Part shown: positions 41,291 through 53,197 of the stretch, one piece after another
Numbering within the stretch: the first letter of the stretch is position 1
Layout: each line of letters opens with the position of its first letter
NCBI GenBank assembly: GCA_038146885.1
Contig: JAYQSM010000005.1
Span: 171,949 to 235,948, forward strand
Direction: 5' to 3'
Length of the DNA: 64,000 bases
Source of the DNA: Rhodospirillaceae bacterium
Lineage (GTDB): Bacteria > Pseudomonadota > Alphaproteobacteria > MPNO01 > UBA2964
Program-made: the position numbers and the translations under genes
The notes under the pieces: model-generated
Told to the model about the DNA's origin: nothing
The model's database searches: none
Seen by the model: the letters and a program-made list of their open reading frames with translations, nothing else

Positions 41291-41525
41291 ACACGTTCCT
41301 GCAAGAAATAGAAACTGGATTGTGGTGCAAAGCTAGAGCTTTGATATTGCTGAGGAAATACCTAGATATTGTGCTTGAGTGGGGTTCATAACCCCCAAAT
41401 CAAATTTTACAGAGGACAAATACAGACCAGCAACAAGTCTCGAGAAAGAGCAGATTGCAAGCGACAGGCTTATAGCTATGACCCCCAATACCATTAGGGC
41501 TTTCAACCGCATTTTCGACAGATAT

Positions 41526-43751
41526 CAGCCAGAGTAGTAGCCTTTATATTTTCCGTAGTAATATCCCTGATCGTAATAGCCATAATACCTTTGTTTCTTC
41601 GCATCAACCTGACTTTACCATCCCTGCAAGGGGCAAATGGGAGTCAAGAGCTAAGGCAGCACCCGTCTTAACGAGATCTTTTGGTGTAGCGCCCCACTTA
41701 ACCACGTAGATCACTTTATCAGCCAACTGAGGAATGACTCGAGCCTCCGCTACAGCTAGCATCGGAGGAGAATCAATATAAATCAAATCGTATTTATCCC
41801 TGAATTTTTTCAAAAGGTCGGCCATTCTCGCCGATGATAAAAGTTCCAGGGAGGAGCCTCCAGCGTCATCGGCTGGGATTACGAACAAACCTGTAGACCC
41901 TACCTGTTGGGTCGCTATTTCTGGACCATATTCACCCGCAAGAACGCCTACCAAATTAAACTCTTTCTTAATCTGAAGACTTGCGTGGATGGTGGGTTTC
42001 CTGAGGTCACAATCAATTATCAAAACCCTCTTTCCAGAAAGCGCACTTTGCTGCGCCATCCAGAGCGTTATTGTTGACTTTCCCTCAGACGGAGTGGAGG
42101 AGGCGACCGAGATCACTTTCGGAGGCTTGTCTACATCTGACAACTGAATTGCGGTCGACAAATTTCGAATGGACTCGGAGATCGTAGATACCGGATCCTC
42201 TACCACCACCTTTGCGATCGCCCTGCGCCCGAGTACAGACTTAACCAGGGGAATAGCCCCCAATACGGGAATACCAACTTCTAGTTCTAGTTGCTTTGCA
42301 GACCTATAACTGTTCTGCATACGCTCCAAAACATATGCAAATAAAAGTCCCAGGAACAAACCACTTATTCCGGATACGATTATAAAGGTTTGCTTATTAG
42401 GAAAGCTTGGCAAAACCGGGACCGAAGCACGCGAGATAATCCTTGCATCTGCTTGTTGCAAATCCTCCTGAGAACTTGTTTCTTTGAAACGATTCAAGAA
42501 ATTTGAATACAGCAATTGGCTTGCTTTTGCCTCTCTTTCTAATTCTCGAAGGCGTATGGCTGCCCTATTTTGTTTTTGGTTGCGCCCTTCCAGCCTATCC
42601 AAATTTCTCTGCAAGGTTGCCTCTCTAGCCCGGGCAACATTCATCTCATTCCGGAGACTTTGAGCGATTTTTCTGACCTCGGTTTCTATCGACTTTCGCA
42701 AATCCCTGAGTTCGTTCTTTGCCTTAAGCATGTTTGGATGCCGAGGACCGTATCGGGACTCCAACTCCGAGACCTTTCTGATCACCTCTGCCTCTTGAGC
42801 CCGGAGGCGTTGGATAAGCATTGAATTTAGGACCTCAGCGGCTGAGGCTAAATTCTGCCCACCCGCCTTCAGCAGGGTTTCTATCTGGTCGAGGCGCGCC
42901 CTGGCTTCTGCGCGTTTTGTCTGTGCCAAAACCATTTGGGTATTCAAGCCAGAAATTTGTTGGGCAGTGATATCGGTCCGTTGACCAAGCTGCGATGACA
43001 TGTTCACACGAAATTTCTCAACCGCTTTCTCAGCTGTCTCCACTTTTGTCTTTAGCGTGTTCAGCCTCTCGCTCAGCCAGTTAGTTGCCCGTTTTGTTGC
43101 CTCGAACTTTGCCTCCAATTGATCCACAATATAGAGATCCGCGATTGTGTTGGCGATTCGGGCTGCTTTCCTGGCATCCAAAGACGTAAAGCCGACCTGT
43201 ATTACAACAGATCGCCTAACCGGTGAAACCACCAGATTCTTTTTAATTTTTTCTACGACCTTTGTTTTTACAAGTGACTTCAACTCAGCTTCTGTAAGAT
43301 TTTCTGGTGGTTCCGATAGCCCGAGAACCACTAGCCAAGTCTCCGGGAGATACTTGATCGGATTCACGTATGAAGCCCACGACGATGATTTTCCAAGGTC
43401 TGGATTAAATTCGGGGTCTCCATCCAATCCTAATTTGTCAACCAATCGACTCAAAAGAGCCCCAGACTGAATCACTTGGTTTCGCTCAGTACCGCTGTCA
43501 TTTCCGGCGAAAGGCCTGACGCCAACGCTCTCTATGTCCGTAACTTTGTTTTTACGCGTTTCAATCATTACCTGCACATTAGCGGTAAATTGTTTCTTAA
43601 GCTGAAACACCGTCAGTGTTCCCAAAATCAGCACAAAAACGGCGGTCGCAAGGATTACTGCTCTCCTACGCCATAGAGCAAACAAAAAACCTAAGATCTT
43701 GCTCTTCTTCAACCAAATTGCGCGCCCCCGATCTGTTCGGAGAAGGGCCAT
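41526..43751 (-). CDS. wzc: Polysaccharide co-polymerase/tyrosine autokinase (Wzc/ExoP-like BY-kinase). The C-terminal tyrosine cluster sits in a different frame (41526..41612).
   Basis: The 715-aa ORF 41604..43751 has an N-terminal transmembrane segment plus a Wzz-like periplasmic domain, a long coiled coil, a second transmembrane segment and a P-loop ATPase (VASSTPSEGKSTITL). The Tyr-rich tail QRYYGYYDQGYYYGKYKGYYSG is encoded immediately downstream but out of frame. Confidence 0.8.
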
Positions 43752-43849: not shown

Positions 43850-44623
43850 ATGCCAATTAAAAATCTTTTTCGCAAATCCACCAACAAACCAAGACCAGGT
43901 ATTACATTCGAAGAGGCTAGGATCCTTGGCCCAGATCGAATCGTCGCCATTGGGGACATACATGGACGATTAGATTCCCTCGAAATCCTTCTTGAAAAAT
44001 TAGAGACCACCCTGTTAGAAAAAGGAGACGGCCTACACTTTGTCTTGCTAGGCGACTATATTGATAGAGGTCCATCTAGCTGCCAAGTGATCAATAAACT
44101 TCTGAAATGGAAATATTTTGGACAGAGTATATTTCTAATGGGTAATCACGAACGCTTTCTTTTAAACTTTCTAGTTGATCCTATAAAGTTTGCCGAGTGG
44201 TTACAATATGGAGGAATTGAAACACTAATTTCCTATCAAGTATTCCCCAAACCTGGTTCTCAATCCCAACAACAACTCATTTCAATTAAAGAAGAACTCG
44301 CCTCTAAGATCCCCGACGCTCACCTTGAATTTTTAAAAAGCCTAAAGCTTTCCTATACATCCGGCGATTTCATGTTCGTACACGCCGGAGTCGACCCCTC
44401 AATTCCACTGGATAAAAACCCCGAGGAAATACTCCTATGGATCAGAGAACCATTTCTGAGCTACCCAAAGCCACTCCCCAAGGTCATCGTCCACGGCCAC
44501 ACAATTTCTAGCAATGGAATCCCAGAAATTCGAATAAACCGAGTTGGTTTAGATACCGGTTCTTACCTAAACGGGAAAATAACCGCAATGGCCGTGGCCG
44601 GAGCAGAAAAAATCAAACAATAA
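43850..44623 (+). CDS. PPP-family metallophosphatase (Ser/Thr/Tyr protein phosphatase, PrpA/PrpB/ApaH-like)
   Basis: A 257-aa protein with the canonical GDIHG, GDYIDRG and GNHE motifs in order. Confidence 0.8.
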   Translation: MPIKNLFRKSTNKPRPGITFEEARILGPDRIVAIGDIHGRLDSLEILLEKLETTLLEKGDGLHFVLLGDYIDRGPSSCQVINKLLKWKYFGQSIFLMGNHERFLLNFLVDPIKFAEWLQYGGIETLISYQVFPKPGSQSQQQLISIKEELASKIPDAHLEFLKSLKLSYTSGDFMFVHAGVDPSIPLDKNPEEILLWIREPFLSYPKPLPKVIVHGHTISSNGIPEIRINRVGLDTGSYLNGKITAMAVAGAEKIKQ

Positions 44624-44812
44624 GTAGCGACTGACATCAAATCGTTCCTCGATTCTGACAACATCGCCAGGTAAGACACGCGTCTCCGGTCCAACGGACA
44701 TTTTATCGCGCTCCGAAGATCCAGATCTTATGAGTGTAATCAGTTCCTTATTTGCCCGATAAGTATAACCACCGCCAAGAGCAACCGCATTAAGGATGGT
44801 CATTCCGTTCAC
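44567..44812 (-). pseudogene. wza: Truncated remnant of polysaccharide export protein Wza (C-terminal about 80 aa only)
   Basis: ORF ..MTILNAVALGGGYTYRANKELITLIRSGS...VLPGDVVRIEE matches the last SLBB domain region of Wza. No N-terminal part exists upstream, where the OMP gene lies. Confidence 0.55.
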
Positions 44813-44841
44813 GTATGGATACCGGAACCCAGCCTATAGAC

Positions 44842-44870
44842 GACTTCGCCGTTGGCAGTACCAACGGCGA
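44842..44870 (-). terminator. Perfect 11-bp-stem hairpin (ttcgccgttgg/tactg/ccaacggcgaa) immediately downstream of the OMP gene
   Basis: The inverted repeat is read directly from the sequence, about 60 bp after the minus-strand OMP stop. It has no clear U-tract. Confidence 0.35.
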
Positions 44871-44929
44871 AGGCTGAAACAACGGCAAGGACTAGCGCCC
44901 TGATCATAACTTTCTGTTCTTATGGGTCC

Positions 44930-46186
44930 TTAGAATTTACCAGCCAATTTGACCATAACGATCTTACGATCATAGTCATTGGTGTTTATATTGGAGTCAC
45001 GCTCTTCATCTGTATATTTGAACCCGAGCGAAAACGACCTATTTAGATCATAATCCAAGCCAACTACGAACGTATCTTTATCGTCGCTCCTAAGATTAGA
45101 TGCGTCCTCATAGTCATTCGACGACCGTTTATAATCCACTTTCACAGCGAGATTACGCAGTAACTCATGGTCGACCCCTACACCGTAGGATGTCATGAGG
45201 TTTCCAGAGGTTTCAGAAGTGGTGCTCTCATTAATATCACGGGATACGTTCAACCTAACTTTCGTCAGTGGAGACATGTACCAAGTGATCTTGGCATTAG
45301 CAACGGTTTCTGAGATATCGCTAAAGCTTGACTCTGTATATTCCCTTTTTATTTTTCCAATCCCGATATCCGCGTCGACAAGTTTGGCCAATTCTAACCT
45401 GATACCCGCCTCAATCGTGTGTCCATCGGAGTCCCTATTAACGCCGCCATCATCCGTAGCGTCATCATAGTCGATGTCTACAAAGCTTGCTCTAATGAAT
45501 GCCTCATAACCTTTTTGAATTTCATAGCCGAGTCGAACATTATATTCCTTGTCACTTCGATCACGATCGTCATTGTTAGTGACGCCGCCACCCTCTTTGG
45601 CCGTATCGTCATAATCATAATTATTGAATTTCGCCCCTATTCCTAGGCCAATTCGGTTTGGCTTGAAGTTAGCGGAGACCCCATAATTGTTACGCTGATA
45701 TTCAGTCGGCGCCAAATCATCTGTACTCGTATTGTCGTCTCCACGCTCTTCAATCAAATTCCGGGTCCGACCTTCCAATTTGATCTGGCTAGACTTGGAA
45801 ATATCCAACCGAAAACGCAACCTCGCATCTGTCCGAGTAGCATTATCTGCCGAGGACCCACTAAACTGGTCCCTCTCTACACCACCATTAAACCTCAGTT
45901 CGTTGCTGCCCCAGTCCGACTTCACAGTCACTTCCGGTTTGATTTTGGTATAATTCTTGGTGCTCGCGCCGGAGTTTTCTTTGTAAAAATTATCATCTCT
46001 GAACTGCTCGATGGTGAGTGTTGGATCGAACTTGAACGATCCAGCTCGACCTCCGACGTTTTTATAACCATCTCCAACTTTGGTATCTGAGGCCTTCTTC
46101 GAATGCCCGCCTGCAAATGCCGGGACCGACCCTACGGCTAAACTTGCCGCAACAAGGACAGTGCTACTAAGTAATACTTTTTTCAT
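44930..46186 (-). CDS. Asp/Asn-rich outer-membrane beta-barrel protein with a signal peptide; possibly polysaccharide- or fibre-associated
   Basis: A 418-aa protein with a Sec signal peptide (MKKVLLSSTVLVAASLAVGSVPAFA). Its sequence shows alternating amphipathic beta-strand periodicity with repeated DYDD motifs. The C-terminal residue is Phe, as in typical OMPs. Confidence 0.6.
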   Translation of the reverse strand: MKKVLLSSTVLVAASLAVGSVPAFAGGHSKKASDTKVGDGYKNVGGRAGSFKFDPTLTIEQFRDDNFYKENSGASTKNYTKIKPEVTVKSDWGSNELRFNGGVERDQFSGSSADNATRTDARLRFRLDISKSSQIKLEGRTRNLIEERGDDNTSTDDLAPTEYQRNNYGVSANFKPNRIGLGIGAKFNNYDYDDTAKEGGGVTNNDDRDRSDKEYNVRLGYEIQKGYEAFIRASFVDIDYDDATDDGGVNRDSDGHTIEAGIRLELAKLVDADIGIGKIKREYTESSFSDISETVANAKITWYMSPLTKVRLNVSRDINESTTSETSGNLMTSYGVGVDHELLRNLAVKVDYKRSSNDYEDASNLRSDDKDTFVVGLDYDLNRSFSLGFKYTDEERDSNINTNDYDRKIVMVKLAGKF

Positions 46187-46216
46187 TTTATCTTATCCCA
46201 AGATCAGAATTGAACG

Positions 46217-47029
46217 TTAACTTGCAGACGCATCCTGAGTTGCGGAGGCATCAGCCGCCGCTTCTGCTGCATCCTGGGCCGCAACCGCTGCTTCTGCTGT
46301 GGCTTCTGGCGTTGCCACTGTTGCAACTGATTCGGCCACCGCCGCTGCCGCTTCCGGGGCCGCCTGAGCCACACTCGCCGCCACCGCCGCTGCCGCTTCC
46401 GGGGCCGCTTGAGCCACACTCGCCGCCACCGCCGCTGCCGCTTCCGGGGCCGCTTGAGCCACACTCGCCGCCACCGCCGCTGCCGCTTCCGGGGCTGCCT
46501 GAGCCACACTCGCCGCTACCGCTGCTGCTGCCGCCGGTGCAACCTGAGCCACACTCGCCGCTACCGCTGCTGCTGCCGCCGGTGCAACCTGAGCCACACT
46601 CGCCGCTACCGCTGCTGCTGCTGCCGGTGCAACCTGAGCCACACTCGCCGCTACCGCCGCGGCCGCTGCTGGGGCCGCTTGAGCCACACTCGCCGCTACC
46701 GCTGCCGCCGCTGCTGGGGCTGCCTGAGCCACACTCGCCGCTACCGCCGCCGCCGCCGCTGGGGCCGCCTGAGCCACACTCGCCGCTACCGCCGCCGCCG
46801 CCGCTGGAGAGGCAGCCGCCGCCGCCGCCGCTATTGATGCGGCAGCCGCTGGATTAGCTGCAGCCAGCTGAGCCGCTAGCGCCGCCAAAGCTTGCGGATT
46901 TCCCGCTGCCGCGGCCAACTGGGCCTGAATGGCCGCACTCACCGGAGGGACGGTCTGAGCAATCGATGGTCCAGCCATAAACAGACCGACCGCCGTAAGG
47001 GCAACTAACGAAGCTTTGCGAAATTTCAT
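46217..47029 (-). CDS. Secreted alanine-rich tandem-repeat protein (about 60% Ala; eleven 15-aa repeats AAP[A/E]AAAAVAASVAQ)
   Basis: A 270-aa ORF with an AAAGGA ribosome-binding site 8 nt upstream of the ATG and a signal peptide MKFRKASLVALTAVGLFMAGPSIAQT. It lies 30 bp upstream of the OMP gene on the same strand. The opposite-strand ORFs in this span are low-complexity artefacts. Confidence 0.6.
   Translation of the reverse strand: MKFRKASLVALTAVGLFMAGPSIAQTVPPVSAAIQAQLAAAAGNPQALAALAAQLAAANPAAAASIAAAAAAASPAAAAAVAASVAQAAPAAAAAVAASVAQAAPAAAAAVAASVAQAAPAAAAAVAASVAQVAPAAAAAVAASVAQVAPAAAAAVAASVAQVAPAAAAAVAASVAQAAPEAAAAVAASVAQAAPEAAAAVAASVAQAAPEAAAAVAASVAQAAPEAAAAVAESVATVATPEATAEAAVAAQDAAEAAADASATQDASAS
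46320..46815. repeat. Tandem array of eleven 45-bp repeats (unit about tgagccacactcgccgccaccgccgctgccgcttccggggccgct), GC-rich, inside the Ala-rich gene
   Basis: The anchor tgagccacactcgccgc recurs at exactly 45-bp spacing from 46365 to 46770, read directly from the sequence. Confidence 0.9.
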
Positions 47030-47282
47030 CTCAATGTCCTTTCAGTAACACAGGCATACATTCGCCCAAATTATTCCGAGCAAACACCTACTCTGATCGG
47101 ACTTTAAGCTCATTGCTCTCATGTGTCAACAAGCCATCAAAGGAGAATAGATACAATCTTTTGCATTTAATTTCGGCCAGTTAGACATCTGAATAAACTT
47201 TAAAATACAGTTGCAGGCCTCTTGATTCGAATTTGGTCCGCAGGGGCACAATGGAGCATTTAGTCCCAACCCGAAAACCTTT

Positions 47283-48308
47283 CTATATCTTCAACCGGCT
47301 AAAAACCCTCAAGGTATTTTCACTAAATACTTGGGTTTTTTGTTTCGGCGATAAGTTGGGAGTGCCGTCGATATATCTCTTGGTGTCATCATAGTTGAAA
47401 CCAGTGGTTGGATCCACACCTCTTACAGCACCCACCATTTCTGACGCAAACAAGATATTTTCGGTCGGAATCACTTTGGTCATGCAATCGATGCCGGCCT
47501 GGTGATAGACACACGTATCAAAAAAGACATTTTGCAGGAGGTGCTCATCTAAAGTCGGTTTTCCCATATCCTGGGCTAACCCGCGATAGCGGCCCCAATG
47601 AAAAGGGACCGCACCACCTCCATGTGGGATGATAAATTTCAAAGTCGGGAAGTCTTTGAAGAGGTCCCCAAGAATGAGCTGCATAAAAACCGTCGTATCA
47701 CCCGCGATATAGTGAGCACCCGTGTGATGAAAATTTGGATTGCACGAACCAGACACATGAAGCATGCCTGGTACATCCAGCTCGCACATTTTCTCCCAAA
47801 GGGGGTACCACCACTTGTCGGTTATCGGCGGATCGGTCCACATAGCCCCGGAAGGATCAGGATTCACATTACACCCTATGAAACCCATTTCATTTACACA
47901 GCGCTCCAGCTCTGGAATGCTCTTTCTGGGTTCCACACCAGGATATTGAGGTAATTGGCAAACGGGCACGAACCGCTCAGGATAGAGATCGCACACCCGA
48001 CGAATCATATTGTTACAGATTTCGGCCCAGTAATAACTGGTCTGCTCTGTCCCCAAATGGTGCCCCATTCCAACGGCCCGCGGGGAAAAAATCGTCATAT
48101 CCGTCCCGCGCTCCATCTGAAGTTTGATCTGATTCGGTTCGAGTCGTTCTCGTATCTCGTCATCCGAGATATTCAAATCGGCCCTGGTCGGAAGAAATGA
48201 TGGGTCGGCCTCAAGCGCCTCCAATTGCTGCTTACGGTAAGAGGTTAGAGCATCAGGTTCTGTTGTGTAGTGGCCATGACAATCAATAATCATTTCGGTC
48301 TTCTCCAA
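47283..48308 (-). CDS. Amidohydrolase_2 family enzyme (LigJ 4-oxalomesaconate hydratase, LigW or ACMSD-like hydratase/decarboxylase)
   Basis: A 341-aa protein with the IDCHGHY metal-binding start and ..HGGGAVPFHWGR.. typical of the ACMSD/LigJ family. Confidence 0.7.
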   Translation of the reverse strand: MEKTEMIIDCHGHYTTEPDALTSYRKQQLEALEADPSFLPTRADLNISDDEIRERLEPNQIKLQMERGTDMTIFSPRAVGMGHHLGTEQTSYYWAEICNNMIRRVCDLYPERFVPVCQLPQYPGVEPRKSIPELERCVNEMGFIGCNVNPDPSGAMWTDPPITDKWWYPLWEKMCELDVPGMLHVSGSCNPNFHHTGAHYIAGDTTVFMQLILGDLFKDFPTLKFIIPHGGGAVPFHWGRYRGLAQDMGKPTLDEHLLQNVFFDTCVYHQAGIDCMTKVIPTENILFASEMVGAVRGVDPTTGFNYDDTKRYIDGTPNLSPKQKTQVFSENTLRVFSRLKI

Positions 48309-48389
48309 TCCGCAGATTTTTTCCGGTTCAGCTCAGCGCACCCCTAATTTGGGGGGGCAAATTAAAATTCAGCAGTCCTTTCGAACGTT

Positions 48390-49301
48390 CTAATAGGAGG
48401 GTTCATTGTTGGACGGGCGTTTTTCATCGCCTGCATTTTTCCTTCCAGACAGCTGGAGGCCCTTTTCTAAACCGGCAAGAGATCTCCCAGCCGCACACAT
48501 CAAAAAGGTATACCCTTCCGCCAACACTCGCTCGGCGTTACTTGCATCGACATGGGGATGGCCCACCGCTACGCGATTGGCCTTGCAGGTATCGACGATC
48601 TGCTTCATCGCATCTAACACCACAGGATGTTCGTATTGTCTTGGATATCCAAGTTCTTGGCTGAGGTCACCCTCACCTATGAGCACTGCACCGACGCCCG
48701 GCACGTTCTTTAAGATGTCATCTAAAGCTGCGATCCCTTTGGTATCTTCAATCATCAGGATTACGAAAATCTCGCCGTCGGGAACCAGAGGCCAAACATC
48801 GGCTTTCTTATAATAGTCTTGTTGCGACAAACCCCAATACCGGACGGCCTGGGTCGGACCGTCCCCCCTTATGCCCGCCGGTTCATAAAGCGGTTTATCA
48901 GAAAGGCGGGGATAGCGACACGCAGCCACAGCGTTATAAGCTTCCTCGACAGAGCTGATATGCGGCCACACCACCCCATAAACCCCGAGATCCAATGCTT
49001 GCTTCGCTTGCCATTGTGCCATCTCATTCCCGTTCGGAGGAACACGGACCATCGGTGTAACAATTGGCGCTATGGAAGCCGCCTTTGCAATCTGGCCGCG
49101 GTTAAGCATGTATTGGAGGCAATCCCGCAATACAGGACCGTCCCAGGGATTATGCTCCATTTCAAAAACAATCCCGTCGTAATCAGTATTTGCACTGAAG
49201 GCGACAGCGCTTGGAACATCTGGCGTGGCAAATGCCGTAAACGCTGGCTGTCCAGCCTCCAACGCTTTGATAACACCATTAAGGCGGGGGATATCAGCCA
49301 T
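48390..49301 (-). CDS. HpcH/HpaI-family 2-keto-3-deoxy/4-hydroxy-2-oxo acid aldolase
   Basis: A 303-aa protein with ..DGIVFEMEHNPWD.. and ..IMIEDTKGIAALDDIL..GVGAVLIGEGDLSQELG, typical of HpcH/HpaI aldolases. Confidence 0.7.
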   Translation of the reverse strand: MADIPRLNGVIKALEAGQPAFTAFATPDVPSAVAFSANTDYDGIVFEMEHNPWDGPVLRDCLQYMLNRGQIAKAASIAPIVTPMVRVPPNGNEMAQWQAKQALDLGVYGVVWPHISSVEEAYNAVAACRYPRLSDKPLYEPAGIRGDGPTQAVRYWGLSQQDYYKKADVWPLVPDGEIFVILMIEDTKGIAALDDILKNVPGVGAVLIGEGDLSQELGYPRQYEHPVVLDAMKQIVDTCKANRVAVGHPHVDASNAERVLAEGYTFLMCAAGRSLAGLEKGLQLSGRKNAGDEKRPSNNEPSY

Positions 49302-49318
49302 CTGCTTTTCCTCTCAAT

Positions 49319-50190
49319 TTAATTGTCAAATCCGTAGAGATTTCCGGGGTTCGTCACAAGGATCTTCTCTAACACATCCTCATCACTTGTATACAGAGGC
49401 AACAAATCCATCAGATCGCCATCATTGGGCATCAGCCCTTGGATATTTGGATGCGGCCAGTCTGTCCCCCACAAGACGCGGTCTGGAGCGACGCCAATAA
49501 GAGCCTGCGCAAAGGGTACCGCATCATGATATGGAAAGCCATGCGAAGAAATCCTCTCCGCACCACAAATTTTGACCCAGAAATCATCTCGCTCTCGCAA
49601 CAAGCCCAGCAAAAGCTGAAAGGCGTCCTGGCCAATCCCATTTTTGGTCTGAACACGTCCCATATGATCGATAACGACGGGCACAGGGAGAGATTTGAGA
49701 GTATCCGCATTTTCAACAATGTCGGCAGCCTCCATATAAAGAACAAGGTGCCATCCCAGGGGGGCAATCTTTTCGACAACCTTTTGAACCAGCGAAAAAT
49801 CAGGTGCATTACCGATATGCCGGGCAAATGAGAACCGCACGCCTCTTATCCCGCCTTGATCCATGTTCCGGAACTGATCTTCGGTAAAGGTTTCATCGAC
49901 AATCGCGACACCCCTGTATCTGCCCCCAGAGCGCTCAATCGCATCAAGCGTCACAGTGTTATCCGTACCATGGCATGTTGCTTGAACGATCACCGCGCGG
50001 CTTAAGCCAAGAGTGTTTTGAAGATCCTGGAAGGCCTCAAAAGGCGAATCGGGCGGCGTATAGGTCCGACCTTCAGCAAATGGAAATTTTGCCGCAGGAC
50101 CGAATATATGGCAGTGGGCGTCACACGCATTTGGTGGCGCGATAAAATTTGGCTTCTTGGTGCTTGGGTCGGGGCCCTGACAAAAATTCA
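49319..50190 (-). CDS. Amidohydrolase_2 lactonase, LigI-like (2-pyrone-4,6-dicarboxylate hydrolase or sugar-lactonase family)
   Basis: It has CDAHCHIFGP...YTPPD...VIVQATCHGTDN...GVRFSF, which resembles LigI. The listed ORF extends to 50338, but the likely start is the Met of MNFCQGPDP near 50190, which avoids overlap with the divergent ligase gene. Confidence 0.6.
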
Positions 50191-50311
50191 TAGCCGGTAA
50201 ATTACAGAGCCATGGACCACCTCGCAAGGAGAGGACATAATTTAGCAAGTTATATATTTTGCGTGATGAATAATTAACCCTACCCCGGAGAGGACCAGAA
50301 TTAGTTACACC

Positions 50312-51796
50312 ATGTCCGCAAGTTTTACAGAAAAGCACAACCTTCTTGGCGAAAAGACCAGGTCAGAGATAGAGCGCTTAAAAGAAAACTTAAAAGCCAC
50401 CGACATTAAAATGGTCAGGATGGTTTGGTCAGACAGTCATGGCCAGGCGCGGGCTAAGCTTCTACCACTAAAAGTGTTTCTCGACTCGTTTGCGGATGGG
50501 TACAACACAAACGTCGCTACTTTCACGCTCGACTCAAGTGGGGGAAGAGTTTTCCGATCCTTTATTCAAGGGGGCGGCATGGATCTTGATGAAATGACAG
50601 GATCCCCAAATCTCGTACTCATACCGGATCCAAGCACATTTCGGATTCTCCCCTGGGCTGGCGGCGTCGGCTGGGTAATGTGTGATGAATATTTCACGGA
50701 TGGAAAGCCCTTTTATTTTTCATCCCGAAGGAGGTTAAGGGAACAAACAGAAAATCTCGCAGGGCGGGGAGCGTCTCTGACTGTTGGCCTCGAGATCGAG
50801 TGGTATTTGCGGCGTGTCGAGACGCTTTACACGACAGAAAACACCGGTGTTCCTGGCCAGCGCGGAAAAGCAATCGACACCCTACCGGTCGAACCCGGCT
50901 ATTCCTATCACTCGGAAACAAATTTGGACCTGATACAACCCCTGCTCAACGAGCTTTACGATGCATATCAGCTCTTGAAAATTCCTCTTCGGTCGATCGA
51001 GAACGAATATGGCCCCGGGCAGGTTGAGTGCACCTTCTCCCCGACCTCTGCCCTCACAGCCGCAGATAACTATCTACTGTTTAGGACGGCCACTAGACAA
51101 ATCTGTCGCCGCCACGGTTATTTCGCGACCTTTATGTGTAAACCCCATTTTGACGGGTACTATCCTAGTGGCTGGCATCTTCATCAGTCCCTAACAGATT
51201 TAAAAACGGGGGAAAATCTTTGTACTCCTGATCATTCCGATGATGTGTTCTCACAGTTCGGTCGCCGCTATCTAGCCGGCCTCCTGGAACATGCCCCTGA
51301 AGCAACGGTATTTGCAACGCCAACTGTCAACGGATATCAGCGCTTCAAACCAAACTCTCTGGCTCCCGACAGAGCCACCTGGAGCTACGATCATCGAGGG
51401 GCGATGCTGCGCGTTATTGGAGGACCAGGTGACCAAGGCACGCGGGTCGAAAATCGTATCGGAGAACCCGCGGCCAACCCCTATCTATTTATCGCGTCCC
51501 AGATTGTTTGTGGTATGGCGGGTATTGAAAATCATTCCGACCTTTGGGATGCCGATCCCGAACCGTATGAAGCCGATCGGCCAAAACTTCCAGGGACCTT
51601 AAGCGCGGCTTTAGGTGCACTTGATTCAAGTGCCCTTTTTCGTAAAAAATTTGGAGATGTTTTCATCGACTATTATCTCGCGCTGAAAAGGGCTGAACTG
51701 AGCCGATACGAAGCCTACATTGCAGATCATGCCCGAGATGATGCAGGAAATGGAGTTTCAGGTTGGGAGCGAGACGAGTATTTCGATTTTTTTTGA
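50312..51796 (+). CDS. Glutamine synthetase-like gamma-glutamyl ligase (PuuA/AtdA1/TdnQ-type GS family protein)
   Basis: A 494-aa protein with a GS beta-grasp N-domain and the catalytic domain motifs (..NEYGPGQVE.., ..HLHQSL.., R-x-E-x-R region ..TRVENRIGEPAANPY). Confidence 0.75.
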   Translation: MSASFTEKHNLLGEKTRSEIERLKENLKATDIKMVRMVWSDSHGQARAKLLPLKVFLDSFADGYNTNVATFTLDSSGGRVFRSFIQGGGMDLDEMTGSPNLVLIPDPSTFRILPWAGGVGWVMCDEYFTDGKPFYFSSRRRLREQTENLAGRGASLTVGLEIEWYLRRVETLYTTENTGVPGQRGKAIDTLPVEPGYSYHSETNLDLIQPLLNELYDAYQLLKIPLRSIENEYGPGQVECTFSPTSALTAADNYLLFRTATRQICRRHGYFATFMCKPHFDGYYPSGWHLHQSLTDLKTGENLCTPDHSDDVFSQFGRRYLAGLLEHAPEATVFATPTVNGYQRFKPNSLAPDRATWSYDHRGAMLRVIGGPGDQGTRVENRIGEPAANPYLFIASQIVCGMAGIENHSDLWDADPEPYEADRPKLPGTLSAALGALDSSALFRKKFGDVFIDYYLALKRAELSRYEAYIADHARDDAGNGVSGWERDEYFDFF

Positions 51797-51828
51797 TGCG
51801 CGCCGAAAATTTGAGGCTGGGAGTTTAA

Positions 51829-53197
51829 ATGGCTAGTGAAGGGTTTACCAAAACGGCAATCGGACACGATTGGGACGAACTGGTTCAGGAAGAAAAAGTT
51901 CATCGGCTGATATATACCGACGAGACCATTTTTAAAGAGGAAATGCGAAAGATTTGGGGAGGCGTTTGGGTTTTTCTCGGACATGAAAGCCAAATCCCCT
52001 GAGAACAATGACTTTATTCAGGCTAAGCTCGGCCTTCGACCTATTATCTTAACGCGGGATACCAACGGAAAAATTCGGGCATTATTCAATCGCTGTACAC
52101 ATCGCGGCTCAACAGTTTGCAGGGAACATCGTGGAAATTCGAAATCGTTCGCCTGTCCCTATCATGGCTGGAGTTTCTTCAACAACGGGAAGCTCTCAGG
52201 GGTCCCTTGGCCTGAAGGTTACGCCGAAGATTTCTCGGATGAAAAATACAACTTGGCTCAGGTTCCAAGGGTTGCATCCTATAGGGGGTTCATATTTGGA
52301 ACCCTCAATATGGATGCCCCATCTTTAGAAAACTACCTCGGAGGCGTGAGAGACCCTCTAGATGATTGGTTAGATCGGCACCCTGGTGGCACCGTCGTCT
52401 TTTGTGACGCCAACAGATTGAAATTTAATGGCAACTGGAAACTTCTTTATGATAATAGCTGTGATGGCTATCACGTGATCTTTTCCCATCGGTCCCTTTT
52501 GGCCATGGAAAACAGACAGAAAGCAGGAGCCAACGCCGAAAAGGGTATGGCTTTTTACAAGAGTAGCCCTGATACCGGTCCAATGTTCTTAAAATATTTC
52601 GGAAACGGACATCATTTTAAAGATAAAAGACCGGCTCTTGAGAAACGACCCGGTGCTCTTTGGGATATTGAGGGCCCCCACCCCGGAATGGAACATTATG
52701 AGGAGAAACTCAAAGCTACGCTGGGGGAGCGGGCCGATGCAGTTCTCGATCTCGCCTCCTCAGAACCCGTAAACATTAATATATTTCCGAATCTCCACAT
52801 ACTCGGCAATCACGTGCAGGTGAGCCAGCCCATCTCATTGACGGAAACGGATACGACCTGGTGGGGCACGGCGGTAGTGGACAAAGACAATGAATTATTT
52901 GGCGCGGTAGACGATATTAATGCGCTTCGGATGAGAACCCAGGAGAGCTTCCCTAACTTCGGCGAACTCGACGATCTTATGAACTTTGAGCAAATTCAAG
53001 TTGGCTTATCGGCCGAGGAAGATCCCTGGGTTTATATGCATCGCGGATTGGGCGTTGAAGGGCGTATAAGACGTGATGAAAACGGTTTTATTGTCGCGCC
53101 GTCAACGGACGAGGTCTTTCTTCGGGAAACGATGAAAGAATATAAAAGGCTTATGAAATCTGAACCCGAATTAACAATCTCTCGCGCGGCACCTTAG
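51829..53197 (+). CDS. Rieske non-haem iron ring-hydroxylating oxygenase alpha subunit. A +1 frameshift in a CCCC run at about 51990 separates the first 53 codons from the main ORF 51983..53197.
   Basis: The N-terminal frame gives MASEGF...IWGGVWVFLGHESQIP, typical of the alpha N-terminus. The main ORF has the Rieske motif CTHRG...CPYHGW and the mononuclear iron region (..GYHVIFSHRS..). Confidence 0.7.

What the first reader, a model, noticed from the sequence alone, without database searches (positions are those of the whole stretch)
44567..47029. Two-gene surface module (secreted Ala-rich tandem-repeat protein plus Asp-rich beta-barrel OMP) replacing most of wza
The alanine-rich protein carries a signal peptide and an 11 x 15-aa repeat with about 60% Ala. 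Its gene is 30 bp upstream of a 418-aa outer-membrane beta-barrel gene with a signal peptide and a C-terminal Phe, on the same strand. The operon abuts an 80-aa C-terminal remnant of wza. That layout suggests it inserted into, or replaced, the export-channel gene of the capsule locus. The repeat gene is about 70% GC locally against about 47% in the surroundings. Candidate roles include a repeat-protein/secretin-like or anchor pair (a fibre, S-layer-like or ice-binding-like surface protein), or an OMP that takes over Wza or Wzi function. The opposite strand of the array encodes spurious Pro-rich and Arg/Cys-rich ORFs.
Basis: partly seen in the sequence, partly recalled or inferred. Interest (0 to 1): 0.7.

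Follow-up and report, generated by a model that had tools for sequence, protein, structure and literature searches.

The report
Polysaccharide export operon head, broken partner
The two genes are the normal, conserved first genes of a sugar-polymer export operon (an undescribed alanine-rich helical repeat protein plus a known type of outer-membrane pore), and they did not replace the neighbouring export gene, which is naturally short and here carries its own internal deletion at the edge of a decaying 31-kb polysaccharide gene island.

Summary
The sequence features are real. There is a 270-aa secreted Ala-rich protein with 11 near-identical 15-aa units, and 30 bp downstream a 418-aa outer-membrane barrel ending in Phe. 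The interpretation that they inserted into wza is not supported.

The order Ala-rich gene, barrel, short OPX (Wza-like outer-membrane polysaccharide export protein), Wzc is ancestral. It occurs in a 94-96% identical relative, in Terasakiella and Thalassospira, and in metagenomic contigs.

The barrel belongs to Pfam BBP2_2. Its model has 18 strands and its best structural match is AlgE. It fits the published Wzp/EpsX/VpsM porin that pairs with short class-3 OPX proteins.

The intact OPX is only 172 aa and ends in ERFF. In this window it has lost 247 bp (residues 30-111, frameshifting). The loss sits exactly where identity to the relative falls from about 96% to about 70%.

The adjoining 31-kb polysaccharide island is full of nonsense and frameshift lesions.

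The Ala-rich protein belongs to an undescribed family of 15-residue, Pro-punctuated repeats. It is modelled as a one-helix-per-repeat α-solenoid. Short family members found by sequence alone sat next to this porin in 3 of 3 cases with readable context. Its function is inferred only; my best guess is a periplasmic scaffold, analogous to AlgK or TPR proteins.

The parts
47101..47129 (-). Promoter-like site (TTGACA-17-TAAAGT, 10 of 12) about 70 bp upstream of the Ala-rich gene
   Evidence: Consensus scan only. Compatible with the Ala-rich gene leading the operon, but not proof.
46217..47029 (-). Gene for a secreted Ala-rich 15-residue-repeat protein (270 aa). Residues 1-24 are the signal peptide, followed by an N-terminal motif, 11 core units and an acidic C-terminal tail ending ...TQDASAS.
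   Evidence: - ORF.
- Orthologues lie upstream of the porin in L001, L007, L006/8/9, L027, L032, L034, L035, L049, L050 and L074.
- No Pfam, NCBIfam or PDB sequence hit.
- dN/dS of the non-repeat parts against L001 is 0.25 and 0.10.
- AF2 model has pLDDT 88.
46313..46807 (-). Core repeat array: 11 x 45 bp encoding P[A/E]AAAAVAASVAQ[A/V]A (TRF array 46338-46801)
   Evidence: -.
- Units differ mostly synonymously: 253 synonymous against 76 non-synonymous pairwise codon differences, including Ser AGT to TCA.
- L001 has 10 units.
- Three metagenome contigs end inside the array.
44930..46186 (-). Gene for an 18-stranded outer-membrane beta-barrel porin (Wzp/EpsX-like; Pfam BBP2_2), 418 aa
   Evidence: - PF10082, E 6e-82.
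- AF2 pLDDT 83 with 18 long strands.
- dN/dS 0.13 against L001.
44809..44907 (-). 5' remnant of the short OPX (wza-like) gene: signal peptide plus the start of the Poly_export motif (MIRALVLAVVSAFAVGTANGEVVYRLGSGIHT*)
   Evidence: It matches residues 1-29 of the 172-aa L001 OPX at 86% identity.
44821..44822 (.). Deletion junction and identity break. 247 bp (L001 9366-9612, OPX residues 30-111) are missing and the frame shifts. Above this point DNA is about 96% identical to L001; below it about 70%.
44567..44821 (-). 3' remnant of the OPX gene. The SLBB part, residues 112-171, lies at 44639-44821. The ERFF-stop terminus is lost and the ORF reads through to 44567, overlapping the convergent phosphoesterase gene.
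   Evidence: -.
- The intact relatives end ERFF or ERYF in 26 of 28 cases.
43850..44623 (+). Calcineurin-like metallophosphoesterase (257 aa), a conserved neighbour of the cassette
   Evidence: PF00149. It is present beside the OPX in L001 and beside the Ala-rich gene in Terasakiella. It is 50% identical to the L001 copy.
41525..43751 (-). Wzc-type PCP/BY-kinase (polysaccharide co-polymerase with tyrosine autokinase domain). The ORF 41604-43751 (715 aa) is truncated by a frameshift. The Tyr-rich tail (SQVDAKKQRYYGYYDQGYYYGKYKGYYSG) lies out of frame at 41525-41614.

Best explanation
The two genes are the conserved head of a Wzx/Wzy-type exopolysaccharide export operon of a Rhodospirillaceae bacterium.

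The normal order is:
1. a secreted Ala-rich repeat protein;
2. an 18-stranded AlgE-like outer-membrane porin (Wzp/EpsX/VpsM type, Pfam BBP2_2);
3. a short periplasmic class-3 (D1D2) OPX of about 172 aa, whose C-terminal Phe-Phe docks on the porin;
4. a Wzc co-polymerase/tyrosine kinase.

The porin, not Wza, is the outer-membrane conduit (shown for the family in Myxococcus and Vibrio; inferred here from fold, family and synteny).

Nothing inserted into wza. The short OPX gene lost 247 bp internally, with a frameshift, and also lost its ERFF-stop end. The deletion sits at the border between a conserved flank and a strain-variable 31-kb polysaccharide island. That island is itself riddled with nonsense and frameshift lesions, so the export machine is probably non-functional in this genome.

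The Ala-rich protein is a member of an undescribed family built from 15-residue Pro-punctuated units, each modelled as one helix of an α-solenoid. I infer that it is exported to the periplasm by Sec and acts as a structural scaffold or adaptor at the periplasmic face of the porin. This would parallel the helical-repeat proteins (AlgK, and the TPR domains of PgaA, BcsC and PelB) that accompany AlgE-type porins. That last step is inference only; I rate it about 0.35-0.4 on its own.
For: Synteny:
- L001 (porin 94% aa, DNA 96%) has Ala-rich 255 aa, porin, an intact 172-aa Poly_export+SLBB protein, Metallophos, Wzc 757 aa, then Wzy_C.
- Terasakiella sp. A23 has the same core order.
- An OPX lies immediately downstream of the porin in 28 of 80 genome loci, and 26 of those 28 end ERFF or ERYF.
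- The FF tail binds the porin in WzaB/WzpB (PMC12819527).

Porin:
- PF10082, E 6e-82.
- 18 strands, pLDDT 83.

Deletion and identity break.

Island decay:
- Low ORF density between 13.7 and 44.8 kb, against about 0.9 in the flanks.
- Fragments of polysaccharide genes.
- In-frame TAA and TGA in Wzy and an in-frame stop in the 230-aa gene.
- Wzc frameshift.

Ala-rich family:
- 98 representatives at E<=1e-3.
- 86 of 101 family sequences (those 98 plus the three word-search hits P0121-P0123) have at least three Pro-Pro spacings of exactly 15.
- 3 of 3 informative short members, picked by sequence alone, lie directly upstream of a BBP2_2 porin.
- Variation is mostly synonymous and dN/dS is below 0.3.
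- Only the sense frame is conserved open.
- The AF2 solenoid has pLDDT 88 and pTM 0.79.

AlgK is needed for proper AlgE localisation (PMC9734138).
Against: - No experiment or complex model ties the Ala-rich protein to the porin.
- The published OPX/porin translocon works in Myxococcus without any such third protein.
- Only about 13 of 80 porin loci carry a 15-mer-repeat ORF upstream.
- The repeat module also occurs fused to FecR domains next to a CHASE2 cyclase with no polysaccharide genes, and in archaeal-type surface proteins. It is therefore a general extracytoplasmic module.
- It has no aromatic or basic residues, which one would expect for sugar binding.
- Repeat number varies (10 against 11 units, and 4-15 across taxa). 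That fits a variable surface protein at least as well as a fixed scaffold.
- Whether the deletion and the stop codons are real or are consensus errors in a strain-variable region of a MAG cannot be decided without reads.
Confidence: 0.85

Rival explanations
1. The Ala-rich protein is a secreted or surface matrix protein, a variable repeat fibre or stalk that associates with the exported polysaccharide. Matrix proteins are encoded beside EPS genes in other bacteria. On this reading it is not a periplasmic part of the export machine.
For: - In-frame copy-number variation between close strains, 11 against 10 units, and wide variation across taxa.
- The same repeat module occurs in large multidomain and archaeal-type surface proteins with CARDB and Ig-like domains.
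- The mature protein is acidic and free of Lys and Arg.
- A conserved extreme C-terminal tail ([AVI]-S-P-[STN], PVSPSx) looks like a sorting or docking tag.
Against: - It has only a Sec signal. No anchor, autotransporter, T1SS or T2SS feature was seen.
- The adjacent barrel belongs to a polysaccharide-porin family that lacks POTRA or secretin domains.
- Tight, same-strand coupling 30 bp upstream of the porin is more typical of a machine subunit.
Confidence: 0.25
2. One reading: a two-gene mobile or foreign module inserted into the capsule locus and displaced most of a full-length wza. The barrel would then serve as a secretin or anchor for the repeat protein.
For: The GC spike over the repeat gene and the truncated SLBB ORF directly downstream.
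Against: - The same gene order with an intact short OPX occurs in L001, Terasakiella, Thalassospira, L088 and L091.
- The GC spike is codon-position 1 and 2 composition.
- The 5' end of the OPX gene is still present after the porin.
- The two genes lie on the conserved side of the identity break, not the variable side.
- No transposase, integrase or repeat borders are present.
Confidence: 0.03
3. The OPX deletion and the fragmentation of the island are artefacts: a chimeric or poor consensus in a strain-variable region of a metagenome-assembled genome. In the living cell the export operon would be intact.
For: - The junction coincides exactly with a sharp drop in identity to the nearest relative. 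That is where mixed-strain assemblies tend to break.
- Related contigs break at the repeat array.
- Two lesions lie at short homopolymer runs: the Wzc frameshift at GTAAAGT and the lost OPX stop at CGATTTGA.
- The nearest named relatives of proteins in this window are MAG proteins.
Against: - Several lesions are in-frame stop codons of all three kinds, not indels.
- The lesions are confined to 31 kb between flanks with intact long ORFs on the same contig.
- A 247-bp loss with at most a few bases of junction homology is not a typical assembler error.
Confidence: 0.25
4. The Ala/Ser/Pro-rich protein is an acceptor for protein O-glycosylation by the Wzy_C-domain enzyme of the locus (a PglL-like O-oligosaccharyltransferase). 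It would be a glycoprotein carrier rather than a scaffold.
For: - A Wzy_C protein is conserved in the cassette.
- From my own knowledge, not tested here: general O-glycosylation systems target Ser in Ala/Pro-rich low-complexity segments, and each repeat carries one Ser in an Ala context.
Against: - A Wzy_C protein next to Wzc, OPX, a flippase fragment and a priming transferase is the expected repeat-unit polymerase.
- The repeats are modelled as well-packed helices rather than disordered linkers.
- No sequon was tested.
Confidence: 0.05

Closest known systems
Composite class-3 (D1D2) OPX / 18-strand beta-barrel translocon: M. xanthus EpsY-EpsX (WzaX-WzpX), ExoA-ExoB, WzaB-WzpB; V. cholerae VpsN-VpsM (PMC9601211, PMC9603273, PMC12819527)
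   Same: - Short OPX (172 aa in the intact relative; Poly_export + one SLBB, no Wza_C helix) encoded next to an 18-strand barrel.
- The barrel's best structural match is AlgE.
- The OPX ends in Phe-Phe.
- A Wzc-type PCP, a Wzy_C protein and a priming transferase lie in the same locus.
   Different: - An extra conserved gene for an Ala-rich α-solenoid sits directly upstream of the porin.
- The OPX has a type-I signal with no lipobox Cys, whereas WzaB needs lipidation.
- In this window the OPX is deleted internally and Wzc is frameshifted.
- Direct sequence comparison with EpsX, WzpB or VpsM was not possible with the tools.
AlgK-AlgE (and the TPR domains of PgaA, BcsC, PelB) of synthase-dependent exopolysaccharide systems (PMC9734138, PMC9384988)
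   Same: - A periplasmic α-helical repeat protein is encoded with, and works at, an AlgE-type porin.
- AlgK is needed for correct AlgE localisation.
   Different: - The repeat is a 15-residue single helix, not a 34-residue TPR helix pair.
- There is no sequence or profile similarity to TPR/Sel1 and no lipid anchor.
- The pathway is Wzx/Wzy-type with OPX and PCP.
- The resemblance is functional analogy only and is untested.
EpsL (TIGR03014) and TIGR03016 PEP-CTERM-associated outer-membrane proteins
   Same: Same Pfam superfamily of polysaccharide-locus barrels (BBP2_2). Alignment covers nearly the full length (residues 62-418).
   Different: - Scores are 77 and 44 bits against cut-offs of 275 and 91.
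- No exosortase or PEP-CTERM genes were seen among the genes examined between about 28 and 50 kb.
- It is not an equivalog.
Wzi (group 1 capsule anchoring lectin barrel)
   Different: - No Pfam Wzi hit.
- It ranks below AlgE.
- According to PMC9601211, Wzi is not needed for export and has a circular rather than elliptical barrel.
MgtE_N / FliG ARM-like helical repeats
   Same: A recurring 'P-x-x-A-A-x-I-[AL]' helix motif with a period of about 15. Two distant library hits of the Ala-rich query (P0126, P0131) give sub-threshold or borderline MgtE_N and FliG_M matches.
   Different: - The window protein and its close family give no such hit.
- Those domains are cytoplasmic.
- This is a lead only.

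Membership tests
Wzp/EpsX-type polysaccharide porin of composite OPX/beta-barrel translocons | Integral outer-membrane beta-barrel of 18 strands with a type-I signal peptide | tested here: met
   The AF2 model has pLDDT 83 and 18 long strands. There is an N-terminal signal ending AFA|G and a C-terminal Phe.
Wzp/EpsX-type polysaccharide porin of composite OPX/beta-barrel translocons | Closest solved structure is AlgE | tested here: met
Wzp/EpsX-type polysaccharide porin of composite OPX/beta-barrel translocons | Gene coupled (within five genes) to a short OPX (<=280 aa) that lacks a C-terminal membrane helix | tested here: met
   This holds in relatives: a 172-aa OPX lies 22 bp downstream in L001, and an OPX is the next ORF downstream (within 400 bp) in 28 of 80 loci. 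In this window the partner is present only as two remnants.
Wzp/EpsX-type polysaccharide porin of composite OPX/beta-barrel translocons | Sequence homology to EpsX, WzpB, ExoB or VpsM | not testable with these tools
   Those sequences were not retrievable. The papers name no Pfam family for them, and no paper mentions PF10082.
Wzp/EpsX-type polysaccharide porin of composite OPX/beta-barrel translocons | Required for polymer secretion; binds the OPX through the OPX C-terminal Phe-Phe | not testable with these tools
   Only indirect evidence: ERFF or ERYF ends in 26 of 28 neighbouring OPX proteins.
Class-3 / D1D2 OPX (the disrupted gene) | Poly_export (PES) domain plus SLBB, no Wza_C or GfcC domain | tested here: inconclusive
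   The intact orthologue meets it (PF02563 + PF10531, 172 aa). The window copy keeps only residues 1-29 and 112-171 in different frames. SLBB is sub-threshold at 19 bits.
EpsL (TIGR03014 equivalog) | Score at or above the curated cut-off (275 bits) | tested here: not met
   76.6 bits.
Wzi | Match to the Wzi family or fold as the best hit | tested here: not met
TPR/Sel1-type periplasmic scaffolds (AlgK-like) | 34-36-residue helix-pair repeats detectable by profile | tested here: not met
   - No TPR or Sel1 hit in Pfam for the window protein or its family.
- The repeat is 15 residues, one helix each.
Undescribed 15-residue Pro-punctuated Ala-rich repeat family (proposed here) | Runs of units with Pro every 15 residues (P-[EA]-A-A-A-x-[IV]-A-x-x-V-[AS]-x-A-[AV]), and in the short forms a signal peptide, an N-terminal ..NP.LAA.IA.. 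motif and a short polar tail | tested here: met
   - 12 Pro-Pro spacings of exactly 15 in the window protein.
- 86 of 101 family sequences (the 98 library hits plus P0121-P0123) have at least three such spacings.
- The alignment A2 has the Pro columns invariant.

The most novel reading that the evidence does not exclude
The Ala-rich 15-residue-repeat α-solenoid is a previously unrecognised third structural subunit of class-3 OPX/Wzp translocons. It is found in Rhodospirillales, Magnetococcales, Methylococcales and others. It would be a periplasmic scaffold, docked through its conserved C-terminal tail, that positions or stabilises the AlgE-like porin and the non-lipidated OPX ring. That would give Wzx/Wzy-dependent pathways an AlgK/TPR-like component and would define a new helical-repeat fold class.
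Probability: 0.3. Interest if true: 0.6.

Novelty: new member of a known kind. Interest (0 to 1): 0.42.

Why it matters
The porin-plus-short-OPX export route was recognised only in 2022 and its architecture is still being worked out. A conserved extra gene at the head of such operons in several proteobacterial orders is a concrete, testable candidate for a missing accessory subunit, and Terasakiella and Thalassospira are named isolates in which its deletion could be tested.

The repeat itself (one helix per 15 residues, up to 61% Ala, no Pfam family) is a widespread unannotated extracytoplasmic module. It also appears fused to FecR sensors.

For this particular window the practical message is more ordinary. 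The locus is a strain-variable polysaccharide island that looks inactivated, and the apparent 'replacement of wza' comes from not knowing that wza is short in this system.

Tried and rejected
1. Exact-sequence look-ups of the window's Ala-rich protein, porin, phosphoesterase and amidohydrolase found no contigs. Cluster look-up showed that the window comes from a 346-kb NCBI contig, close to 'Rhodospirillaceae bacterium' MAG proteins.
2. The word-indexed homology search with the Ala-rich protein was swamped by low complexity and gave 3 hits. The exhaustive HMMER search was needed.
3. The metagenome locus scan with the family alignment failed once for lack of a conserved stretch. A second attempt gave a single Thalassospira-like locus.
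4. I tested whether the other small secreted Ala-rich ORFs found upstream of porins (the '...GDPPSGQ' and '...QSPN' groups) are distant homologues of the 15-mer family. hhalign probabilities were 17%, 0.7% and 1.8%, which is not significant. They are positional analogues at most.
5. I tested whether the Ala-rich gene compensates for a missing OPX lipid anchor. Most porin-coupled OPX proteins lack a lipobox whether or not the Ala-rich gene is present, so there is no correlation.
7. Rfam found nothing in the window, so a non-coding reading of the array has no support.
8. Foreign origin of the GC-rich gene is rejected by codon-position GC.
9. No literature was found on PF10082 or on an Ala-rich protein in such loci.

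Full report
**What is in the sequence.**
On the minus strand, 46217-47029 encodes a 270-aa protein with a Sec-type leader (MKFRKASLVALTAVGLFMAGPSIA|Q). It is 54% Ala overall and carries 11 near-identical 15-residue units, P[A/E]AAAAVAASVAQ[A/V]A, at residues 75-239, with degenerate units on both sides. TRF reports a 45-bp unit x 10.3 at 46338-46801, and this is the only strong tandem array in the window. GC is 0.73-0.75 over the array against 0.41-0.50 nearby. The excess sits at codon positions 1 and 2 (0.85 and 0.71). Position 3 is 0.54, against 0.47 in the next gene. The GC spike therefore reflects alanine codons, not foreign DNA.

Thirty base pairs downstream, 44930-46186 encodes a 418-aa protein with a signal peptide, 11% Asp and a C-terminal Phe. 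The exception is the description of the wza remnant, treated below.

**The barrel.**

This is the signature reported for EpsX, ExoB and WzpB of Myxococcus xanthus. Those are 18-stranded barrels whose nearest structure is AlgE. They are encoded next to short OPX proteins that lack the membrane-spanning helix of Wza, and they are required for secretion. VpsM/VpsN of Vibrio cholerae is another such pair (PMC9601211; PMC9603273).

**The neighbourhood in relatives.**
A metagenomic contig, L001, carries a porin 94% identical to this one. Its gene order is:
- amidohydrolase;
- Ala-rich protein (255 aa, 10 units);
- porin;
- an intact 172-aa Poly_export+SLBB protein;
- a convergent metallophosphoesterase;
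- Wzc (757 aa);
- a 230-aa protein;
- Wzy_C.

Terasakiella sp. A23 has a 326-aa Ala-rich protein, then porin, a 175-aa OPX, Wzc, a 224-aa protein and Wzy_C. Among 80 genome loci retrieved through the porin, 28 have a short OPX as the next gene. Of those, 26 end in ERFF or ERYF. In WzaB the C-terminal Phe-Phe is the determinant for binding the WzpB porin and is essential in vivo (PMC12819527). The two genes are therefore the ancestral head of the export operon, not an insertion.

**What happened to wza.**
Directly after the porin stop there is still an ATG at 44907. It is followed by MIRALVLAVVSAFAVGTANGEVVYRLGSGIHT*, which matches residues 1-29 of the 172-aa OPX. Residues 112-171 follow at 44821-44639 in another frame. 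Relative to L001, 247 bp (OPX residues 30-111) are missing. The natural ERFF-stop end is also lost, so the listed 81-aa ORF reads through into the convergent phosphoesterase gene.

The junction at 44821/44822 coincides exactly with a change in similarity to L001. Identity is about 96% from 51998 down to 44822. Below that it is about 70% at DNA level and 50-59% at protein level. Both outer flanks of the region are conserved with L001's contig: ribonucleotide reductase, an NDP-sugar epimerase and asparagine synthase on one side, and the amidohydrolase cluster on the other. Synonymous divergence rises toward the junction, from 0.05 to 0.21. This is the pattern of a strain-variable polysaccharide island exchanged between conserved flanks, with the break inside the OPX gene.

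**The island looks dead.**
Between about 13.7 and 44.8 kb the density of long ORFs is low, while both flanks are about 90% coding. The pieces are fragments of the following:
- a nucleotidyltransferase;
- a MurJ/Wzx-type flippase;
- a deacetylase;
- methyltransferases;
- Polysacc_synt_2;
- GDP-mannose dehydratase;
- glycosyltransferases;
- the priming sugar transferase.

Wzy carries in-frame TAA and TGA codons with similarity continuing beyond them. The 230-aa gene has an in-frame stop. Wzc is frameshifted just before its Tyr-rich tail. Stop-codon substitutions of all three kinds, confined to one island on a contig whose flanks are clean, argue for real decay. A poor consensus in a strain-variable region of a MAG cannot be excluded without reads, and I give that reading 0.25.

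**The Ala-rich protein.**
It has no Pfam, NCBIfam or PDB sequence match. An exhaustive HMMER search of 1.8 billion representatives gives 98 hits at E<=1e-3. Counting the three word-search hits as well, 86 of 101 family sequences contain at least three consecutive prolines spaced exactly 15 apart.

The family has two forms:
- Short secreted proteins of 170-330 aa. They have a signal peptide, an N-terminal ..NP.LAA.IA.. motif, 4-15 units of consensus P-[ED]-A-A-A-[EA]-[IV]-A-x-x-V-[AS]-x-A-[AV], and a short tail that often ends [AVI]-S-P-[STN].
- Longer proteins in which the module follows a FecR domain or other surface-protein domains.

Evidence that the gene is translated in this frame and under constraint:
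- the units differ mostly synonymously, 253 against 76, including Ser AGT to TCA;
- dN/dS of the non-repeat parts against L001 is 0.25 and 0.10;
- only this frame is open end to end in nine orthologues.

Evidence linking the gene to the porin:
- a 15-periodic Ala-rich ORF lies immediately upstream of the porin in about 13 of the 80 loci, including Thalassospira, Terasakiella, a Magnetococcales MAG, Methylobacter and Methylovulum;
- conversely, all three short family members with enough contig, chosen by sequence alone, lie directly upstream of a BBP2_2 porin followed by OPX and/or PCP.

One FecR fusion, in contrast, sits next to a CHASE2 guanylate cyclase with no polysaccharide genes.

**Structure and likely role.**

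The mature protein has no Lys or Arg and is acidic. It has a Sec signal, no lipobox and no anchor.

I propose that it is a periplasmic structural scaffold or adaptor for the porin. The reasoning is that AlgE-type porins in synthase-dependent systems always work with a periplasmic helical-repeat partner. Examples are AlgK, which is needed for AlgE localisation, and the TPR domains of PgaA, BcsC and PelB (PMC9734138; PMC9384988, abstract). That proposal is inference, which I rate at roughly 0.35-0.4. The main rival is a secreted or surface matrix protein (0.25), favoured by copy-number variability and by the module's use in surface proteins.

**Comparison and novelty.**
The porin/short-OPX/Wzc core is a further example of the composite translocon described in 2022-2026. 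There was, however, no replacement of wza.

What is not in the literature or the databases I could search is the Ala-rich 15-mer family and its linkage to these porins. The finding as a whole is a new member of a known kind of system. It carries an unannotated accessory gene and sits in a locus that appears inactivated in this genome.

Noticed in passing
window 13700-44800: A roughly 31-kb polysaccharide-biosynthesis island in which nearly every gene is broken. It holds fragments of NTP_transferase, a MurJ/Wzx flippase, a deacetylase, methyltransferases, Polysacc_synt_2, GDP-mannose dehydratase, glycosyltransferases and Bac_transf. There are in-frame TAA/TGA/TAG codons as well as frameshifts. 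Both flanks (1-13.7 kb and 44.9-64 kb) have intact long ORFs.
   Followed up: partly
window 41525-41614 (-): The Wzc ORF stops at 41604 (…AGMVKSG*). Its Tyr-rich tail (SQVDAKKQRYYGYYDQGYYYGKYKGYYSG) continues in another frame, and the shift lies at a short A-run (GTAAAGT). The same truncated 715-aa product is on record from the source NCBI contig (P0222).
   Followed up: partly
window 43850-44623 (+); L001 9795-10589; L005 1666-2445: A calcineurin-like metallophosphoesterase (ApaH/PrpE-like) is a conserved neighbour of the OPX/Wzc genes in all three genomes. It is a candidate cognate phosphatase for the Wzc tyrosine kinase in place of a Wzb. This was not tested.
   Followed up: no
window 44822-51998 vs L001: Synonymous divergence from the close relative rises steadily toward the island (dS 0.05, 0.065, 0.10, then 0.10-0.21). 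This is as expected next to a recombining, diversifying surface-polysaccharide locus.
   Followed up: partly
L002, L003, L004 (contig ends); L001 7203-7970: Three independent metagenome contigs of the close relative end inside the 45-bp repeat array, so the array breaks short-read assemblies. The complete relative has 10 units against 11 here, and Ala instead of Glu at unit position 2 in three units.
   Followed up: yes
C-termini of family members (window 46220-46250; P0125, P0135, P0137, P0147, P0183, P0204 and others): The extreme C-terminus of the repeat family is recurrently [AVI]-S-P-[STN](x), PVSPS(x) or PPYGQ, often preceded by ENP. The window copy ends DASAS. It looks like a docking or sorting tag of unknown meaning.
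   Followed up: partly
L087 6001-9567 (P0123): The FecR-domain proteins that carry the same Ala-rich 15-mer module at their C-terminus are encoded directly upstream of a CHASE2-guanylate cyclase sensor, with no polysaccharide genes nearby. The module is therefore portable between extracytoplasmic systems.
   Followed up: partly
porin residues 200-210 (window about 45557-45589): An invariant G-x4-N-x-D-R-D-R motif (…GGVTNNDDRDRSD…) lies in the loop between strands 7 and 8 of the model. It is conserved in all 20 aligned porins down to 30% identity. It may be a lumen-facing or ion-binding loop.
   Followed up: no
L039, L048, L051, L061, L067, L079, L082, L083 and L029, L033, L036, L013, L026 (ORF just upstream of the porin): Many other porin loci carry a different small secreted, Ala-rich (20-27%) ORF at the same position (families ending …GDPPSGQ or …QSPN). 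Profile comparison shows no significant homology to the 15-mer family, so these may be positional analogues.
   Followed up: yes
window 46217-47029: Other proteins tested from this window are in the 15-billion-protein collection, listed on the source 346-kb NCBI contig: the porin, RNR and Wzc among them. The exact Ala-rich protein and the glutamine-synthetase-like protein (50312-51796) are not. The repeat gene was probably not called, or was called differently, in the source annotation.
   Followed up: no
window 44844-44872 (-): A short perfect palindrome (GCCGTTGG…CCAACGGC) lies inside the signal-peptide coding part of the OPX 5' remnant and is also present in L001. It is probably incidental.
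   Followed up: no
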